Shown: in pieces, positions 53,028 through 56,480 of the stretch | Layout: each line of letters starts with the position of its first letter | Numbering within the stretch: position 1 is the first letter of the stretch | NCBI GenBank assembly: GCA_048885925.1 | Contig: JBHLLG010000001.1 | Location: forward strand, 291,105 to 355,104 | Direction: 5' to 3' | Length of the DNA stretch: 64,000 nucleotides | Origin: Candidatus Hermodarchaeota archaeon | GTDB lineage: Archaea > Asgardarchaeota > Lokiarchaeia > Sigyniarchaeales > SOKP01 | Made by a program: the position numbers and the translations under genes | Notes under the pieces: generated by a model | What the model was told of the DNA's origin: nothing | What the model saw: only the letters and a program-made list of their open reading frames with translations | The model's database searches: none

Positions 53028-54389
53028 ATGCCTACTCGTATTGTTGTAATTGGAATGGGATATGTCGGAATCCCTATGGCAGCTTTACTTGCTGATGTAG
53101 AGGATTTTTATGTAACTGGAATTCAACGAAGATCTCAAAGATCGGGATGGAAAATAGATTGGTTAAACCAAGGAAAGAACCCCTTTGAAGGTGAAGAGCC
53201 AGGTTTGGATGAACTAATTGCTAGAATTGTAAAGAATGGTAAATTTAAAGTTACTGATAAATATGATGCTGTTGATGAAGCTGATTATATTCTAATTGAT
53301 GTACAAACTCCAGTAGACGATGATAAAATTCCAAGATATGAATCCTTGCTTGAAGTTTCACAAAAACTCTCAAAACATATAAAAAAGGGAGTGACTATTA
53401 TCCTTGAATCTACTGTGGCACCAGGTACAACCAATAATATAGTAAAACCAATATTAGAAGAGGGGAGTGGATTAATAAGGGGTAAAGATTTTTACCTTGT
53501 ATTTTCATTTGAAAGAGTTATGCCTGGAAAATTGTTGGAATATATAACAGACTTTCCACGTGTTATTGGAGGAGGATGCCCAGAAGCAAATGAGAGCGCC
53601 AAATTTCTGTATGGAAAAGTTGTTAAAAAAGAACTTCAAGTGACCGATACTCTCACTGCAGAATTAACTAAATGCGTTGAAAATGCTTATAGGGATGTCA
53701 ATATCGCATTTGCCAACGAAATGGCTTTACTATGTGAAGATTTTAATAGAAATATCTATGAAATTGTCGAGCTAATAAATCAAAGACATGATAGGATGAT
53801 GCATTATCCTGGTAGTGGTGTAGGGGGGCATTGTCTCACTAAGGATCCTTGGTTATTATTACATGGCTATGATAAATACACAGAAAAGAAAAATAAAGAA
53901 AAAATAAAACTTATACCAAATTCAAGAAATCTCAATGATTATATGCCGTATCATATGGTAGAATTAATGGAAGATGTGTTTAGAGAAGCCCATAAATTAG
54001 TAGACAATATTAAAATAGTTCTTTTGGGTGTTTCCTATAAAGCAGACACAGATGATACCCGTAATACACCTACAGAGAATATAGTAAAGGTTCTTCAAGG
54101 TCGATATCATTCTCATAATATTGTGTATATTGCTCACGATCCTTACGTTAATGAAAGAGATTATAAATTAACAAAATTAACTAATGATTTTAATGAAGCT
54201 GTTTCTGATGCTGATGTTTTAATTTTTGCTACAAACCATAGTGAATATTATAAGATCGAATTAGATGATCTCAAAAAGAAAGTTAGAACTCCAATAATTA
54301 TTGACGGTAGAAATATTTTTAGCAAGAAAAAAGTTGAAGAAAAGGGATTTATATATCGAAAAGTTGGAGAAGGTCCTAATGCGCCTTAA
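53028..54389 (+). CDS. Nucleotide-sugar dehydrogenase (UDP-GlcNAc/ManNAc dehydrogenase family)
   Basis: GMGYVG, ESTVAPGTT, ENAYRDVNIAFANE, GVGGHCL.KDP. Confidence 0.92.
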   Translation: MPTRIVVIGMGYVGIPMAALLADVEDFYVTGIQRRSQRSGWKIDWLNQGKNPFEGEEPGLDELIARIVKNGKFKVTDKYDAVDEADYILIDVQTPVDDDKIPRYESLLEVSQKLSKHIKKGVTIILESTVAPGTTNNIVKPILEEGSGLIRGKDFYLVFSFERVMPGKLLEYITDFPRVIGGGCPEANESAKFLYGKVVKKELQVTDTLTAELTKCVENAYRDVNIAFANEMALLCEDFNRNIYEIVELINQRHDRMMHYPGSGVGGHCLTKDPWLLLHGYDKYTEKKNKEKIKLIPNSRNLNDYMPYHMVELMEDVFREAHKLVDNIKIVLLGVSYKADTDDTRNTPTENIVKVLQGRYHSHNIVYIAHDPYVNERDYKLTKLTNDFNEAVSDADVLIFATNHSEYYKIELDDLKKKVRTPIIIDGRNIFSKKKVEEKGFIYRKVGEGPNAP

Positions 54390-54410
54390 AAATTAGGAAG
54401 ATAAAAAAGA

Positions 54411-54464
54411 TAAGGTTTCAAATCTCATAGTTCTTGCGGAACTCATAACTAAATCCTAACATTT
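54411..54464 (-). ncRNA. 3'-UTR hairpin B, SECIS-like candidate
   Basis: UAGGAUUUAGUU-AUGA-GUUC-CGCAA-GAAC-UAU-GA-GAUU; homologous to 54779-54830. Confidence 0.55.
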
Positions 54465-54491
54465 AATGATTTAATTTATTGAGATTTATTA

Positions 54492-54629
54492 TTATTCATC
54501 CGGAACATTTTGTTTTTTTAGTTTTCGGAGTTTTTGGGCTCTACGGTACCACATACTAAGCATCCCTCAACTTGTACTGTAACAATCATCATCAAATTCT
54601 ATATCAAAATAATCTTCTTGGTCAGTCAT
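54492..54629 (-). CDS. Putative 45-aa selenoprotein B
   Basis: MTDQEDYFDIEFDDDCYSTS(TGA)GMLSMWYRRAQKLRKLKKQNVPDE; TGA at 54567-54569. Confidence 0.6.
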
Positions 54630-54778
54630 TTTAATCATCTAAATTTCATTCTAATTCTTTCGAAATAAATTAAAAATTAAAGAGTGATGATTATGAATAA
54701 TAAATATTATCTTTGAATCGACAATTATTTATAAAAATTAATCAAATTCTATTGATTTAATATAAAAAAGGAACATAG

Positions 54779-54830
54779 TAAGTTTAATCTCGAATTCTTG
54801 GCGGAATTCATGGGATTAAATTCTAGATTT
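54779..54830 (-). ncRNA. 3'-UTR hairpin A, SECIS-like candidate
   Basis: UUUAAUC-CC-AUGA-AUUC-CGCCAA-GAAU-UC-GA-GAUUAAA. Confidence 0.55.
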
Positions 54831-54837
54831 TAACAAT

Positions 54838-54987
54838 TTAATCCTTGAGATTTTTTAATAATTTTTTATGTTTGTATTTTTTTCTGAGATTTCTAAAACC
54901 TTGGATAATTCCATCAATTAATCCTCACCCTGTACAAAAGAATTCTTCTTTTTCTGAATTATCTAATCTATCTTTCCATTCTGACAA
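54838..54987 (-). CDS. Putative 49-aa CxxU selenoprotein A
   Basis: MSEWKDRLDNSEKEEFFCTG(TGA)GLIDGIIQGFRNLRKKYKHKKLLKNLKD; TTG start after AAGTGA; TGA at 54925-54927. Confidence 0.62.
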
Positions 54988-55164
54988 GTCTTTCACTTGT
55001 TTTTGTATATTTATTTGGGAAAAATTTGAAGAAATAAATAACTTACCATTTTCAATAATAAGAAATATAAGAGCTTCATATAACTCATATCTTTATTAGA
55101 AAATTACAATCAATAAATTTTTAAAAATAGAACCTTACATATATTTAAAATTATAAATTTCAAA

Positions 55165-55854
55165 ATGTTGATTTATATGCTCTTTGATTATTGGGATGTA
55201 ATTGGCGCTTTTTTTAATTGGGTAGCAGAATCTGCGGCAATAATGATGGTTTTAAGTGGTTTAATGGCAATTACATGGTTTGGGTATGAGCGAAAACGAA
55301 GAGGGTCATTTCTAAAAAGAAAATCCGGAGTGGAAAAATTTGATATTACAAAATTTCTTCGAGGAATGTCTTATATAGGCTTAGTTCTCGGGATATTTGT
55401 CATTTGGAGCGGGATAATGGGATTGATTTTAGACATAGCTCCTAGTTTAAGATATGAAGAAGTAAATCCTGGGGAAGGGGCAAACCATTTTACCTGTATA
55501 TTTCTAATTGTTATCGGAATTGTCATGTTTTTCAAACCGATTTCAGATTTACCTCTCTCCAGTATATTAGGTCTTTTAGCAGGCACTGCAACAGCTTTTA
55601 TTATTTCATTGGTTATTCCTGATTCTATTGCCGATTTAGTTGGAACCAAGGTATTAAAATGGACATTAGTAATTATATTTATCATTGTAACGGTTATCGT
55701 TGGACTTACGTCTAAATTCTATATCGGAACACTACAAAAAATATCAAAATTTCTCAGCTGGCCTCCAATCGCTTTTATTATCGTGGTATTTTGCTTGGTT
55801 CAAGGTTTGTGTTTATTGCTTGGTGGTTTTAGTATCTTCGCGAATCTTCTATAA
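55165..55854 (+). CDS. Multi-pass membrane protein
   Basis: About 6 TMs; divergent from the UGA micro-ORFs. Confidence 0.8.
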   Translation: MLIYMLFDYWDVIGAFFNWVAESAAIMMVLSGLMAITWFGYERKRRGSFLKRKSGVEKFDITKFLRGMSYIGLVLGIFVIWSGIMGLILDIAPSLRYEEVNPGEGANHFTCIFLIVIGIVMFFKPISDLPLSSILGLLAGTATAFIISLVIPDSIADLVGTKVLKWTLVIIFIIVTVIVGLTSKFYIGTLQKISKFLSWPPIAFIIVVFCLVQGLCLLLGGFSIFANLL

Positions 55855-56201: not shown

Positions 56202-56480
56202 ATGGCTGGAATAAAAGAGTTAAAGAAAGAACTTTCTGAAATGCGGTTAAGCATGGAGCGGTTGACAGAAGAATTACATGAAACGAATCTAGCAATAAAG
56301 GAGTCATTAGAATTAACTTCTAAAACTATCAAAGAAGCAAGTGAAACATTTTCAAAAACGTTGGAAGAAACGATGGAAAGAATGTCAGATTTGACAATTC
56401 AAATGAATGTAAGAGATACTATTCTTAAAAGCCTTGGTATTGATGGAATGATTCCAGATTTCTTGAAGAAAAAGAAATAA
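56202..56480 (+). CDS. Small coiled-coil protein
   Basis: Heptad pattern; AGGAG upstream. Confidence 0.75.
   Translation: MAGIKELKKELSEMRLSMERLTEELHETNLAIKESLELTSKTIKEASETFSKTLEETMERMSDLTIQMNVRDTILKSLGIDGMIPDFLKKKK

What the first reader, a model, noticed from the sequence alone, without database searches (positions are those of the whole stretch)
54411..54996. Tandem pair of unannotated UGA-recoded micro-proteins (putative new selenoproteins), each with its own 3' SECIS-like hairpin
Seen: two minus-strand ORFs missed by the track. A (54987-54838) reads MSEWKDRLDNSEKEEFFCTG-UGA-GLIDGIIQGFRNLRKKYKHKKLLKNLKD; B (54629-54492) reads MTDQEDYFDIEFDDDCYSTS-UGA-GMLSMWYRRAQKLRKLKKQNVPDE. In both, UGA is codon 21, follows a Cys (CxxU in A, CxxxxU in B), precedes Gly, and separates an acidic N-half from a basic, amphipathic-looking C-half. 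Each is followed by a homologous hairpin and a T-run. Established: Lokiarchaeota encode Sec using 3'-UTR SECIS elements, and CxxU is a classic redox motif. Their reported selenoproteins are SelD, peroxiredoxin-like, Hdr, Vhu and Fdh types, which these do not resemble. Inference: a new family of tiny selenopeptides (redox or membrane-associated switch, Se sensor, or RiPP-like precursor).
Basis: partly seen in the sequence, partly recalled or inferred. Interest (0 to 1): 0.93.

Follow-up and report, generated by a model that had tools for sequence, protein, structure and literature searches.

The report
Two new small archaeal selenoproteins
Two tiny neighbouring genes in a Lokiarchaeon-type archaeon most likely encode previously unreported selenocysteine proteins, and each is followed by a conserved RNA signal that looks like a new form of the signal telling the ribosome to read UGA as selenocysteine.

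Summary
ORF A (54987-54838) and ORF B (54629-54492), both on the minus strand, each carry UGA at codon 21.

Profile searches found A in 104 of 399 genomes of the phylum. All 104 lie in one family-level clade, and every hit carries one TGA. B was found in 63 of 160 genomes of the class. Its Sec column reads TGA 49 times and TGT (Cys) 4 times.

In the 16 codons after UGA the frame is open in 50/50 (A) and 53/53 (B) sequences. pN/pS is 0.50 and 0.41 in frame, against 0.85-1.08 in the shifted frames.

The genome holds SepSecS, a UCA tRNA, an EFSec-like gene and Sec-containing SelD, and it uses TGA as an ordinary stop.

All 22 of its base pairs show compensatory changes across 116 copies. The element occurs only after these genes, is shared by A-B operons, and is lost after one Cys-form clade. 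Its long arm carries the apical-loop motif AAANNNUAG found in canonical lokiSECIS elements of the same genus, but it lacks the AUGA/GA core.

Protein function is unknown; a CxxU redox role is inferred. No expression data were available.

The parts
54838..54987 (-). ORF A: small selenoprotein candidate, 49 codons plus TAA, TTG start, motif CTGU. The last six codons and the stop overlap the RNA element.
   Evidence: Homologues with one TGA in 104/399 genomes of the phylum, all in one family-level clade. AF2 model: helix 3-10, loop with CTGU, helix 22-48, pLDDT 71.
54925..54927 (-). In-frame UGA of ORF A (codon 21), read as Sec.
   Evidence: TGA in 50/50 extracted A genes and one TGA in all 104 profile hits. 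The frame after it is open in 50/50, with pN/pS 0.50.
54776..54855 (-). 3' element of A, a three-way junction. P1 pairs 54852-54847 with 54791-54786. P2 pairs 54844-54835 with 54822-54813 and has the loop GUUAAAAUCUAG at 54834-54823. P3 pairs 54809-54804 with 54797-54792 and has the loop CGCCAA.
   Evidence: R1 model hit of 95.7 bits. Covariation. Loop invariants.
54764..54769 (-). T-run after element A, a likely archaeal transcription stop.
   Evidence: Sequence read. That oligo-T runs act as archaeal terminators is established knowledge, recalled and not tested here.
54492..54629 (-). ORF B: paralogous small selenoprotein candidate, 45 codons plus TAA, ATG start, motif CYSTSU.
   Evidence: Homologues in 63/160 genomes of the class. 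AF2 model: helix 23-41, pLDDT 66.
54567..54569 (-). In-frame UGA of ORF B (codon 21), read as Sec.
   Evidence: TGA 49 and TGT 4 among 53 extracted B genes. The frame after it is open in 53/53, with pN/pS 0.41.
54411..54489 (-). 3' element of B, a three-way junction. P1 pairs 54486-54481 with 54426-54421. P2 pairs 54476-54468 with 54455-54447 and has the loop AUUAAAUGUUAG at 54467-54456. P3 is AGUUC-CGCAA-GAACU at 54443-54429.
   Evidence: R1 model hit of 54.2 bits. The model was built from A-type copies only, so this hit is not circular.
54403..54408 (-). T-run after element B.
   Evidence: Sequence read.

Best explanation
A and B are paralogous genes for small selenoproteins of about 45-60 residues. 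In each, UGA at codon 21 is read as selenocysteine by the organism's archaeal/eukaryote-type Sec machinery.

The recoding signal is most likely the ~80-nt three-way-junction RNA that begins at or just before the stop codon. Its long arm P2 has a 9-10 bp stem and an 11-12 nt loop ending AAANNNUAG. That loop is the same apical motif carried by the canonical lokiSECIS elements of this genus. In place of the AUGA/GA kink-turn core, the base of the arm is held by a junction with a closing helix P1 (AUCUC/GAGAU) and a short hairpin P3 (loop YGY..).

In the protein, Sec sits just before a long amphipathic helix with a polybasic C-terminal tail. A Cys lies 3 residues (A) or 5 residues (B) upstream. 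The likely chemistry is therefore a redox-active selenylsulfide. The partner or substrate is unknown.

Shown here: conservation of the UGA, coding past the UGA, Sec/Cys exchange, presence of the machinery, the RNA structure and its exclusive link to these genes.

Inferred: that the residue inserted is Sec, that the element is the SECIS, and the redox role.
For: (1) Conservation of the UGA.
- A-family profile search: 104/399 genomes of the phylum, each hit with one TGA.
- B-family profile search: 63/160 genomes of the class.
- Sec-column codons in extracted genes: A is TGA 50/50; B is TGA 49 and TGT 4.

(2) Coding continues past the UGA.
- In the 16 codons after UGA, frame 0 is open in 50/50 (A) and 53/53 (B).
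- The +1 frame holds stops in 50/50 and 52/53; the +2 frame in 43/50 and 45/53.
- pN/pS is 0.50 and 0.41 in frame, against 0.85-1.08 in the shifted frames.
- No conserved start codon follows the UGA.

(3) Cys forms.
- G020, G028, G031 and G099 have TGT.
- Two metagenome proteins, P0008 and P0010, have Cys at that position.

(4) Sec machinery in the own genome.
- SepSecS scores 478 bits.
- A tRNA with a UCA anticodon and a long variable arm lies about 80 nt upstream of SepSecS.
- An EFSec-like gene scores 234.9 bits.
- SelD carries an in-frame TGA.
- VhuD and HdrA-like U-ORFs carry canonical lokiSECIS elements.
- TGA closes 222 of 1556 long open frames, so it is not reassigned genome-wide.

(5) The RNA element.
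- Across 116 copies, 95.1% of cells are paired, 22/22 pairs show compensatory changes, and 0/500 shuffles reach the observed values.
- G-U pairs are frequent, which fixes the functional strand as the sense strand of A and B.

(6) Link between the element and the UGA ORFs.
- The own genome has only the two copies; the next best hit scores 20 bits.
- All 19 of 19 single-copy elements examined in seven other genera directly follow an A-type C-x-G-U ORF.
- The seven g1 genomes without A or B also lack the element.
- The Cys-form B genes of G028, G031 and G099 have lost it.
- In genera g27 (4 loci) and g19 (1 locus), A and B lie about 20 nt apart and share one element placed after B. Published HdrA-VhuD pairs share one lokiSECIS in the same way (PMC4989117 section 11).

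(7) Shared apical loop.
- The only invariant bases of the element are AAA and UAG in the P2 loop.
- P2 loops end AAANNNUAG in 110/116 copies.
- Canonical lokiSECIS loops of the genus end AAA[UAC]NNUAG in 10/12, and identical 9-mers occur in both sets.
Against: - No AUGA/GA (or GA_[G/A]A) quartet flanks any stem, so the element fails the defining core of every described eukaryote-like or Loki SECIS. The GAA_A bulge of euryarchaeal SECIS is absent too (criteria from PMC11227280 section 7).
- Rfam gives no SECIS hit.
- G020 has Cys in B yet keeps an almost intact element, which scores 35.6 bits.
- The co-loss of Sec and the element rests on a single clade, so it counts as one evolutionary event.
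- The tRNA-Sec candidate scores 34.1 bits, under Rfam's cut-off of 47.
- PSTK was not found with TIGR03574.
- The A genes of G005 and G025 end in TGA, so one mRNA would need one UGA read as Sec and another read as stop.
- There is no transcript, proteomic or Se-labelling evidence.
- The AF2 models have only moderate confidence (pLDDT 71 and 66), and the redox role is pure inference.
Confidence: 0.72

Rival explanations
1. The ORFs are genuine Sec-recoded genes, but the three-way junction is not the SECIS. It would be a 3' stability or termination element, or a binding site for the basic proteins themselves, inherited with the gene. Sec insertion would be directed by something else.
For: The element lacks the AUGA/GA core. 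G020 keeps it next to a Cys codon. It always sits just before a T-run. Since A and B are paralogues, the shared 3' end could be simple descent.
Against: No other conserved structure lies in these short transcripts. The element is lost exactly where B became Cys in the G028/G031/G099 clade, while the neighbouring Sec-containing A keeps its copy. One element serves two UGA ORFs in operons. The loop motif is shared with canonical lokiSECIS elements.
Confidence: 0.12
2. UGA is recoded, but not as Sec. It would be context-dependent read-through by a near-cognate tRNA (Trp, Cys or Arg), possibly stimulated by the 3' element.
For: No direct evidence for selenium. The element differs from known SECIS elements. 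Databases hold W-translated versions, although these only reflect gene callers using a TGA=W code.
Against: The only natural replacement seen is Cys (TGT), the classic Sec exchange. A nearby Cys gives CxxU or CxxxxU. SepSecS was found in 39/40 genomes of the genus. The loop motif is shared with the SECIS elements of bona fide selenoprotein genes.
Confidence: 0.07
3. UGA is a true stop. The products would be 20-residue acidic micropeptides, and the conserved sequence downstream would be 3'-UTR RNA or a separately translated second peptide.
For: TGA is an ordinary stop in this genome. In B of this genome an ATG follows two codons after the TGA.
Against: The frame stays open for at least 16 codons in 103/103 genes, while the other frames are closed. 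pN/pS is 0.4-0.5 in frame only. The downstream ATG is not conserved: relatives read SLI, SFI, ALI there. Cys forms are read straight through.
Confidence: 0.05
4. The whole locus is a pair of structured non-coding RNAs, and the ORFs are incidental.
For: The 3' part is clearly a structured RNA. Weak C/D-box snoRNA hits appear on the opposite strand, at E 0.54 and 8.7 and far below the cut-offs.
Against: Amino-acid-level conservation with synonymous change lies upstream of the structured part. ATG starts are conserved. A Shine-Dalgarno-like GAGGTGA precedes B in operons.
Confidence: 0.03

Closest known systems
lokiSECIS / Asgard eSECIS-like type I element (Mariotti 2016, PMC4989117; Huang 2024, PMC11227280)
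   Same: It lies in the 3' UTR, at or within a few nt of the stop codon. It has a 9-10 bp stem capped by an 11-12 nt loop with an A-run and a terminal (U)AG. The same loop 9-mers occur in both kinds of element within this genus. One element can serve two adjacent UGA genes.
   Different: No AUGA on the 5' side and no GA/AA on the 3' side of the stem. Instead the arm sits in a three-way junction with a closing helix and an extra 5-6 bp hairpin. The A-run starts at loop position 4, not 1. It is not hit by the lokiSECIS-style pattern scans.
Loki SPS (SelD) SECIS, type II-like
   Same: It sets a precedent: one gene family in the same organisms uses a SECIS shape of its own, one that evades the general model (PMC4989117 sections 11 and 17).
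   Different: The SPS form keeps AUGA..GA, and its extra stem is in the apical region. This is seen downstream of the own SelD by eye, not formally modelled. In the element here, the extra hairpin is at the base.
Euryarchaeal SECIS (GAA_A bulge, Methanococcales)
   Same: A 3'-UTR stem-loop that directs Sec insertion in archaea.
   Different: No GAA_A bulge between two stems and no G-C-rich upper stem (criteria from PMC11227280 section 7).
Small CxxU selenoproteins of the thioredoxin-like Rdx group (SelW, SelT, SelH); the comparison is recalled, not tested by search
   Same: A CxxU motif placed just before an alpha-helix.
   Different: Only 45-60 residues and predicted to be two helices with no beta-sheet. 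No Pfam match: DUF3088 scores 16.3 bits against a cut-off of 26.4. The tail is polybasic.
Known Asgard selenoprotein families: SelD, FrhA/VhuU, HdrA, FrhD/VhuD, Prx-like, AhpF-N-like, DsbA-like
   Same: Same organisms and the same Sec machinery.
   Different: No sequence relation. This family is restricted to one family-level clade, 103/133 genomes there against 0/265 elsewhere in the phylum.

Membership tests
Selenoprotein gene (general bioinformatic criteria) | In-frame UGA conserved among orthologues | tested here: met
   A is TGA 50/50, and all 104 profile hits carry one TGA. B is TGA 49/53.
Selenoprotein gene (general bioinformatic criteria) | Protein-type conservation on both sides of the UGA | tested here: met
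   pN/pS after the UGA is 0.50 (A) and 0.41 (B) in frame, against 0.85-1.08 out of frame. The frame is open in 103/103 genes.
Selenoprotein gene (general bioinformatic criteria) | Homologues with Cys at the Sec position | tested here: met
   For B: TGT in G020, G028, G031 and G099, plus proteins P0008 and P0010. For A: none found among the 104 hits.
Selenoprotein gene (general bioinformatic criteria) | Sec machinery in the same genome | tested here: met
   SepSecS, a UCA tRNA, an EFSec-like gene and Sec-SelD were found. PSTK was not found with TIGR03574.
Selenoprotein gene (general bioinformatic criteria) | Selenium incorporated in the protein | not testable with these tools
   Needs 75Se labelling or mass spectrometry. 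No RNA run was listed.
lokiSECIS / eSECIS-like type I | Core 5'-(AU)GA ... [G/A]A-3' directly flanking the upper stem | tested here: not met
   P2 is flanked by AA on the 5' side and UAU or UUU on the 3' side. The AUGA before P3 in this genome varies in relatives (ACGA, AAGA, UUGA, UAGA). The first pair of P3 covaries GC 46 / AU 33, so it is a Watson-Crick pair.
lokiSECIS / eSECIS-like type I | Upper stem of 7-15 bp and apical loop of 8-20 nt | tested here: met
   P2 has 10 modelled pairs. Loop length is 12 nt in 86, 11 nt in 29 and 10 nt in 1 of 116 copies.
lokiSECIS / eSECIS-like type I | A-rich 5' part of the apical loop and a conserved G (mostly AG) at its end | tested here: met
   AAA is present in 116, 115 and 116 of 116 copies, and UAG in 113, 113 and 116 of 116. 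The 9-mers are shared with 12 canonical elements.
lokiSECIS / eSECIS-like type I | Location in the 3' UTR close to the stop codon of a UGA-containing gene | tested here: met
   The element starts from 11 nt before to 18 nt after the end of the ORF.
Euryarchaeal SECIS | GAA_A bulge between a lower and an upper stem | tested here: not met
   No such arrangement appears in the consensus.
Any Rfam family | Match at the gathering score | tested here: not met
   Only two sub-threshold C/D-box hits in 54000-55400, at E 0.54 and 8.7.
Known protein families (Pfam, NCBIfam) | Match over the curated cut-off | tested here: not met
   A: DUF3088 at 16.3 bits against 26.4, and Zn_Ribbon_TF at 15.3 against 29. 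B: no hit. NCBIfam: no hit for either.

The most novel reading that the evidence does not exclude
This is a kink-turn-less class of SECIS. In these Asgard archaea the determinant read by the Sec-insertion machinery would be the apical hairpin with its AAANNNUAG loop, not the AUGA/GA quartet, which a three-way junction can replace. The element serves a lineage-specific pair of mini-selenoproteins. These may pair through their amphipathic helices and bring two Sec residues together as a redox or selenium-handling switch.
Probability: 0.45. Interest if true: 0.88.

Novelty: new variant of a known kind. Interest (0 to 1): 0.8.

Why it matters
Surveys of Asgard selenoproteomes worked by homology to known families or by AUGA-type SECIS models (PMC4989117 sections 15 and 17; PMC11227280 sections 6 and 7). 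They report seven families. This would be an eighth, lineage-specific family, found in about 100 of 133 genomes of one clade and invisible to those methods.

The RNA result may matter more. Asgard archaea are held to bridge archaeal and eukaryotic Sec insertion, yet they lack SBP2 (heading of section 12 of PMC4989117; I read the heading only), and what recognises their SECIS is unknown. A natural element that keeps the apical loop but drops the kink-turn core splits the two features cleanly. That makes the question of which feature is read directly testable.

It also warns that UGA-interrupted micro-ORFs are being lost, or mistranslated with W, in public protein sets.

Tried and rejected
- **Rfam scan of 54000-55400.** No SECIS; only sub-threshold snoRNA hits on the other strand. 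Rejected as chance.
Rejected. The AUGA is not conserved, and the 3' GA is not adjacent to the 4-bp stem that reading needs.
- **A kink-turn or k-junction reading using the GA at the start of P3 and the GA of GAGAU.** Considered and set aside. The first P3 pair covaries as a Watson-Crick pair, GC 46 / AU 33.
- **Paralogues in the own genome.** None beyond the two ORFs themselves. An earlier phmmer --max run timed out and was replaced by blastp.
- **Repeat or mobile-element explanation.** blastn of the region against the genome found only short AT-rich words.
- **Genome-wide code change.** Rejected: TGA closes 222/1556 long frames.
- **Correlation of A/B with Sec machinery within the genus.** Uninformative, because SepSecS is in 39/40 genomes.
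- **Neighbour genes.** A UDP-glucose/GDP-mannose dehydrogenase-family gene is convergent and syntenic in 53/75 loci. A 229-aa membrane protein and a 92-aa coiled-coil ORF have no family. None gives a functional lead.
- **Expression.** No RNA holder was listed.
- **Literature.** Searches found no report of these proteins or of a three-way-junction SECIS. The groundwater-MAG study cited in PMC13188914 is not in the library.
- **Papers seen.**
  - PMC11227280: abstract, outline, sections 6, 7, 13, 14.
  - PMC4989117: abstract, outline, section 11, and passages of sections 15 and 17.
  - PMC13188914: passages only.
  - All others: search listing only.
Full report
**What is in the window.** On the minus strand, ORF A runs 54987..54838. 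It has a TTG start, an in-frame GTG at 54996, and 49 codons followed by TAA. ORF B runs 54629..54492, with an ATG start and 45 codons followed by TAA. Each has TGA as codon 21, at 54927-54925 and 54569-54567. Each TGA is preceded by a Cys (CTGU in A, CYSTSU in B) and followed by Gly. Each ORF is followed by a related hairpin and a T-run.

**The organism.** The window is G000:C1:291105-355104, in a 3.9-Mb genome of 29% GC in 181 contigs. Close relatives of the neighbouring dehydrogenase gene lie on contigs titled Promethearchaeota archaeon, including Loki_b31 and Loki_b32.

The genome carries Sec machinery:
- SepSecS at 478 bits.
- A tRNA about 80 nt upstream of SepSecS, with a UCA anticodon, a long variable arm and a CCA end. 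It scores 34.1 bits, under Rfam's cut-off of 47. ARAGORN did not call it.
- An EFSec-like gene on the same contig at 234.9 bits, against a cut-off of 242.
- SelD with an in-frame TGA at ..HGUSCK...

PSTK was not found with TIGR03574. TGA closes 222 of 1556 open frames of at least 300 codons, so it is an ordinary stop. Canonical lokiSECIS elements (AUGA, 9 bp, 11-nt loop, GA) follow VhuD-type and HdrA-type U-ORFs on C5, C11 and C23.

**Comparative evidence that the ORFs are read through.**
- Single-sequence searches of 60 relatives found A with one TGA in 31 of 35 same-genus genomes. They found B in 31 of 35: 28 with TGA and 3 without a stop. The alignments span the TGA.
- A profile of B found it in 63 of 160 genomes of the class. 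All lie in one family-level clade f1 (62/133 besides the own genome). None lies in the 26 genomes of other families.
- A profile of A found it in 104 of 399 genomes of the phylum. These were 103/133 in f1 and 0/265 elsewhere. Every hit carries one TGA.
- I extracted 50 A and 53 B genes from fetched loci. The Sec-column codon is TGA 50/50 in A. In B it is TGA 49 and TGT 4, the four being G020, G028, G031 and G099.
- In the 16 codons after the UGA, frame 0 is open in 50/50 and 53/53. The +1 frame has stops in 50/50 and 52/53, and the +2 frame in 43/50 and 45/53.
- pN/pS is 0.50 (A) and 0.41 (B) in frame, against 0.85-1.08 in the shifted frames.
- No start codon is conserved after the UGA.
- Large protein collections hold the family only in three forms: W-translated, i.e. 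called with TGA=W (P0003-P0007, P0009, P0011, P0012); Cys forms (P0008, P0010); and a C-terminal fragment (P0013).
- Pfam and NCBIfam give nothing over their cut-offs.

**The 3' element.**
- P1, AUCUC/GAGAU.
- P2, 9-10 bp with an 11-12 nt loop.
- P3, GARUUC-YGY..-GAAYUC.

I built a covariance model from 31 A-type copies. It recovered the B-type copies at 36-62 bits and, later, copies from other genera.

On 116 copies from 72 loci, 95.1% of cells pair and 22/22 pairs show compensatory changes. No shuffle out of 500 reaches the observed values, and slid registers fall to 21-63% paired. One caveat applies: that alignment was fitted to the model. An independent RNAalifold run on a MAFFT alignment did find P2, with 8 of its 10 pairs compensatory.

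In some A genes the last codons (..NLKE/D) double as the 5' strand of P1 and the start of P2.

**Is the element a SECIS?** Evidence for:
- The own genome has exactly two copies (95.7 and 54.2 bits); the next hit is at 20 bits.
- Across family f1 the element is in 100/134 genomes.
- All 19 of 19 single-copy elements examined in genera g18, g22, g23, g24, g27, g28 and g29 sit from 11 nt inside to 18 nt beyond an A-type ORF with C-[TSA]-G-U.
- The seven g1 genomes with neither A nor B have no element. G023 (A only) and G026 (B only) have one.
- In G028, G031 and G099, B has TGT and no element, while the adjacent Sec-containing A keeps its own.
- In g27 (G092, G094, G096, G097) and g19 (G071), A and B lie about 20 nt apart. 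A GAGGTGA precedes B, and the only element follows B. Published HdrA-VhuD pairs share one lokiSECIS in the same way (PMC4989117 section 11).
- The only invariant bases of the element are AAA and UAG in the P2 loop.
- P2 loops end AAANNNUAG in 110/116 copies. Of the 12 canonical lokiSECIS elements for which I hold DNA, 10 have loops ending AAA[UAC]NNUAG. The same 9-mers occur in both sets, for example AAAUAUUAG, AAAUGUUAG and AAAUGCUAG.

Evidence against:
- No AUGA/GA or GA_[G/A]A core flanks P2 or P3, which is the defining feature in PMC11227280 section 7.
- G020 keeps a near-intact element beside a Cys codon.
- The Sec-to-Cys co-loss is one clade, hence one evolutionary event.
- G016 has a third copy that I did not examine. 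G006 has five copies, at a second locus that is partly masked.
- G101 shows B and two elements but gave no A-profile hit at E 1e-4. I did not examine it.

**The proteins.** AF2 with the family alignments gives:
- A: helix 3-10, a loop carrying CTGU, and helix 22-48 (pLDDT 71).
- B: a long helix 23-41 right after U21-G22 (pLDDT 66).

Conserved features of A are MSEWK.., C-x-G-U, an invariant Asp four residues after Sec, hydrophobic positions with a roughly heptad spacing, and a polybasic tail. Conserved features of B are an acidic N-half, CY..U, MWY.RA.KL and a basic tail.

In one A subclade the Cys at -3 is missing and a Cys sits at -8. That flexibility is typical of a resolving Cys on a mobile loop. 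I infer a redox-active selenylsulfide at the N-cap of a helix.

**Comparison with what is known.** The published Asgard selenoproteome comprises seven families: SelD, FrhA/VhuU, HdrA, FrhD/VhuD, Prx-like, AhpF-N-like and DsbA-like (PMC11227280 section 13; passages of the 2026 review PMC13188914). The 2016 Loki study predicted no further candidates with its lokiSECIS-based and homology-based searches (PMC4989117 sections 15 and 17). Those methods could not have found this family. My literature searches found no description of it or of a junction-type SECIS.

**Verdict.** These are real, conserved, UGA-recoded micro-genes, and very probably selenoproteins of a new, clade-restricted family. Their 3' element is a well-supported structured RNA that works like a SECIS and shares the lokiSECIS apical loop. 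It fails the core-motif membership test, so I file it as a new variant rather than as a member. Function, expression and selenium content remain to be shown.

Noticed in passing
G000 contigs C5, C11, C23, C42 (outside the window): Canonical selenoprotein genes of the same genome. VhuD-type and HdrA-type U-ORFs are followed by AUGA + 9 bp + AAAAAU.UUAG + 9 bp + GA. SelD carries an in-frame TGA and a different, type II-looking structure downstream.
   Followed up: partly
G000:C8:83730-85185 and C8:76648-77568: A tRNA with a UCA anticodon and a long variable arm sits about 80 nt upstream of SepSecS. It scores under Rfam's tRNA-Sec cut-off and is not called by ARAGORN. An EFSec-like gene lies about 6 kb away. 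PSTK was not detected with TIGR03574.
   Followed up: partly
window 53028-54389 (+) and loci L127-L201: The UDP-glucose/GDP-mannose dehydrogenase-family gene is convergent with the selenoprotein gene(s). The element lies 20-130 nt past its stop in 53 of 75 Promethearchaeota loci and in 0 of 5 non-Asgard loci. Many of these loci belong to genomes already counted elsewhere in this report.
   Followed up: partly
loci L131, L144, L145, L152, L168, L177, L178 (public contigs): Contigs titled Odinarchaeota, Hodarchaeota, Thorarchaeota or 'Nanopelagicaceae bacterium' carry a dehydrogenase 77-89% identical to this Promethearchaeota gene. Six of them (all but L177) also carry the element, so those bins are probably mislabelled.
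   Followed up: no
L028 (G025) and L051 (G005), A genes: The A gene ends in TGA where relatives have TAG; the next in-frame stop is TAG five codons later. The same mRNA would then hold one UGA read as Sec and one acting as a stop or giving a short extension.
   Followed up: no
L058 (G006:C1:189000-192600) and G016: G006 has a second locus with one A-type and two B-type elements, five in all. The A ORF there lies in a masked N stretch. G016 has a third element somewhere outside the A-B locus.
   Followed up: no
proteins P0003-P0007, P0009, P0011-P0013: Public protein sets hold B-family members with W at the Sec position, that is, short contigs called with a TGA=W code. They also hold a C-terminal fragment started at an internal ATG. 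These are systematic mis-annotations of the family.
   Followed up: partly
window 54838-54855 (-): The last codons of ORF A (..NLKD) and its stop codon also form the 5' strand of P1 and the start of P2. The conserved C-terminal NLKE/D of many A proteins may therefore reflect RNA constraint rather than protein constraint.
   Followed up: partly
window 56202-56480 (+): A 92-aa coiled-coil-like ORF with no family. Its antisense translation reappears upstream of the A gene in several g28 loci (G141, G137, G115, G149), which suggests a second conserved neighbour.
   Followed up: no
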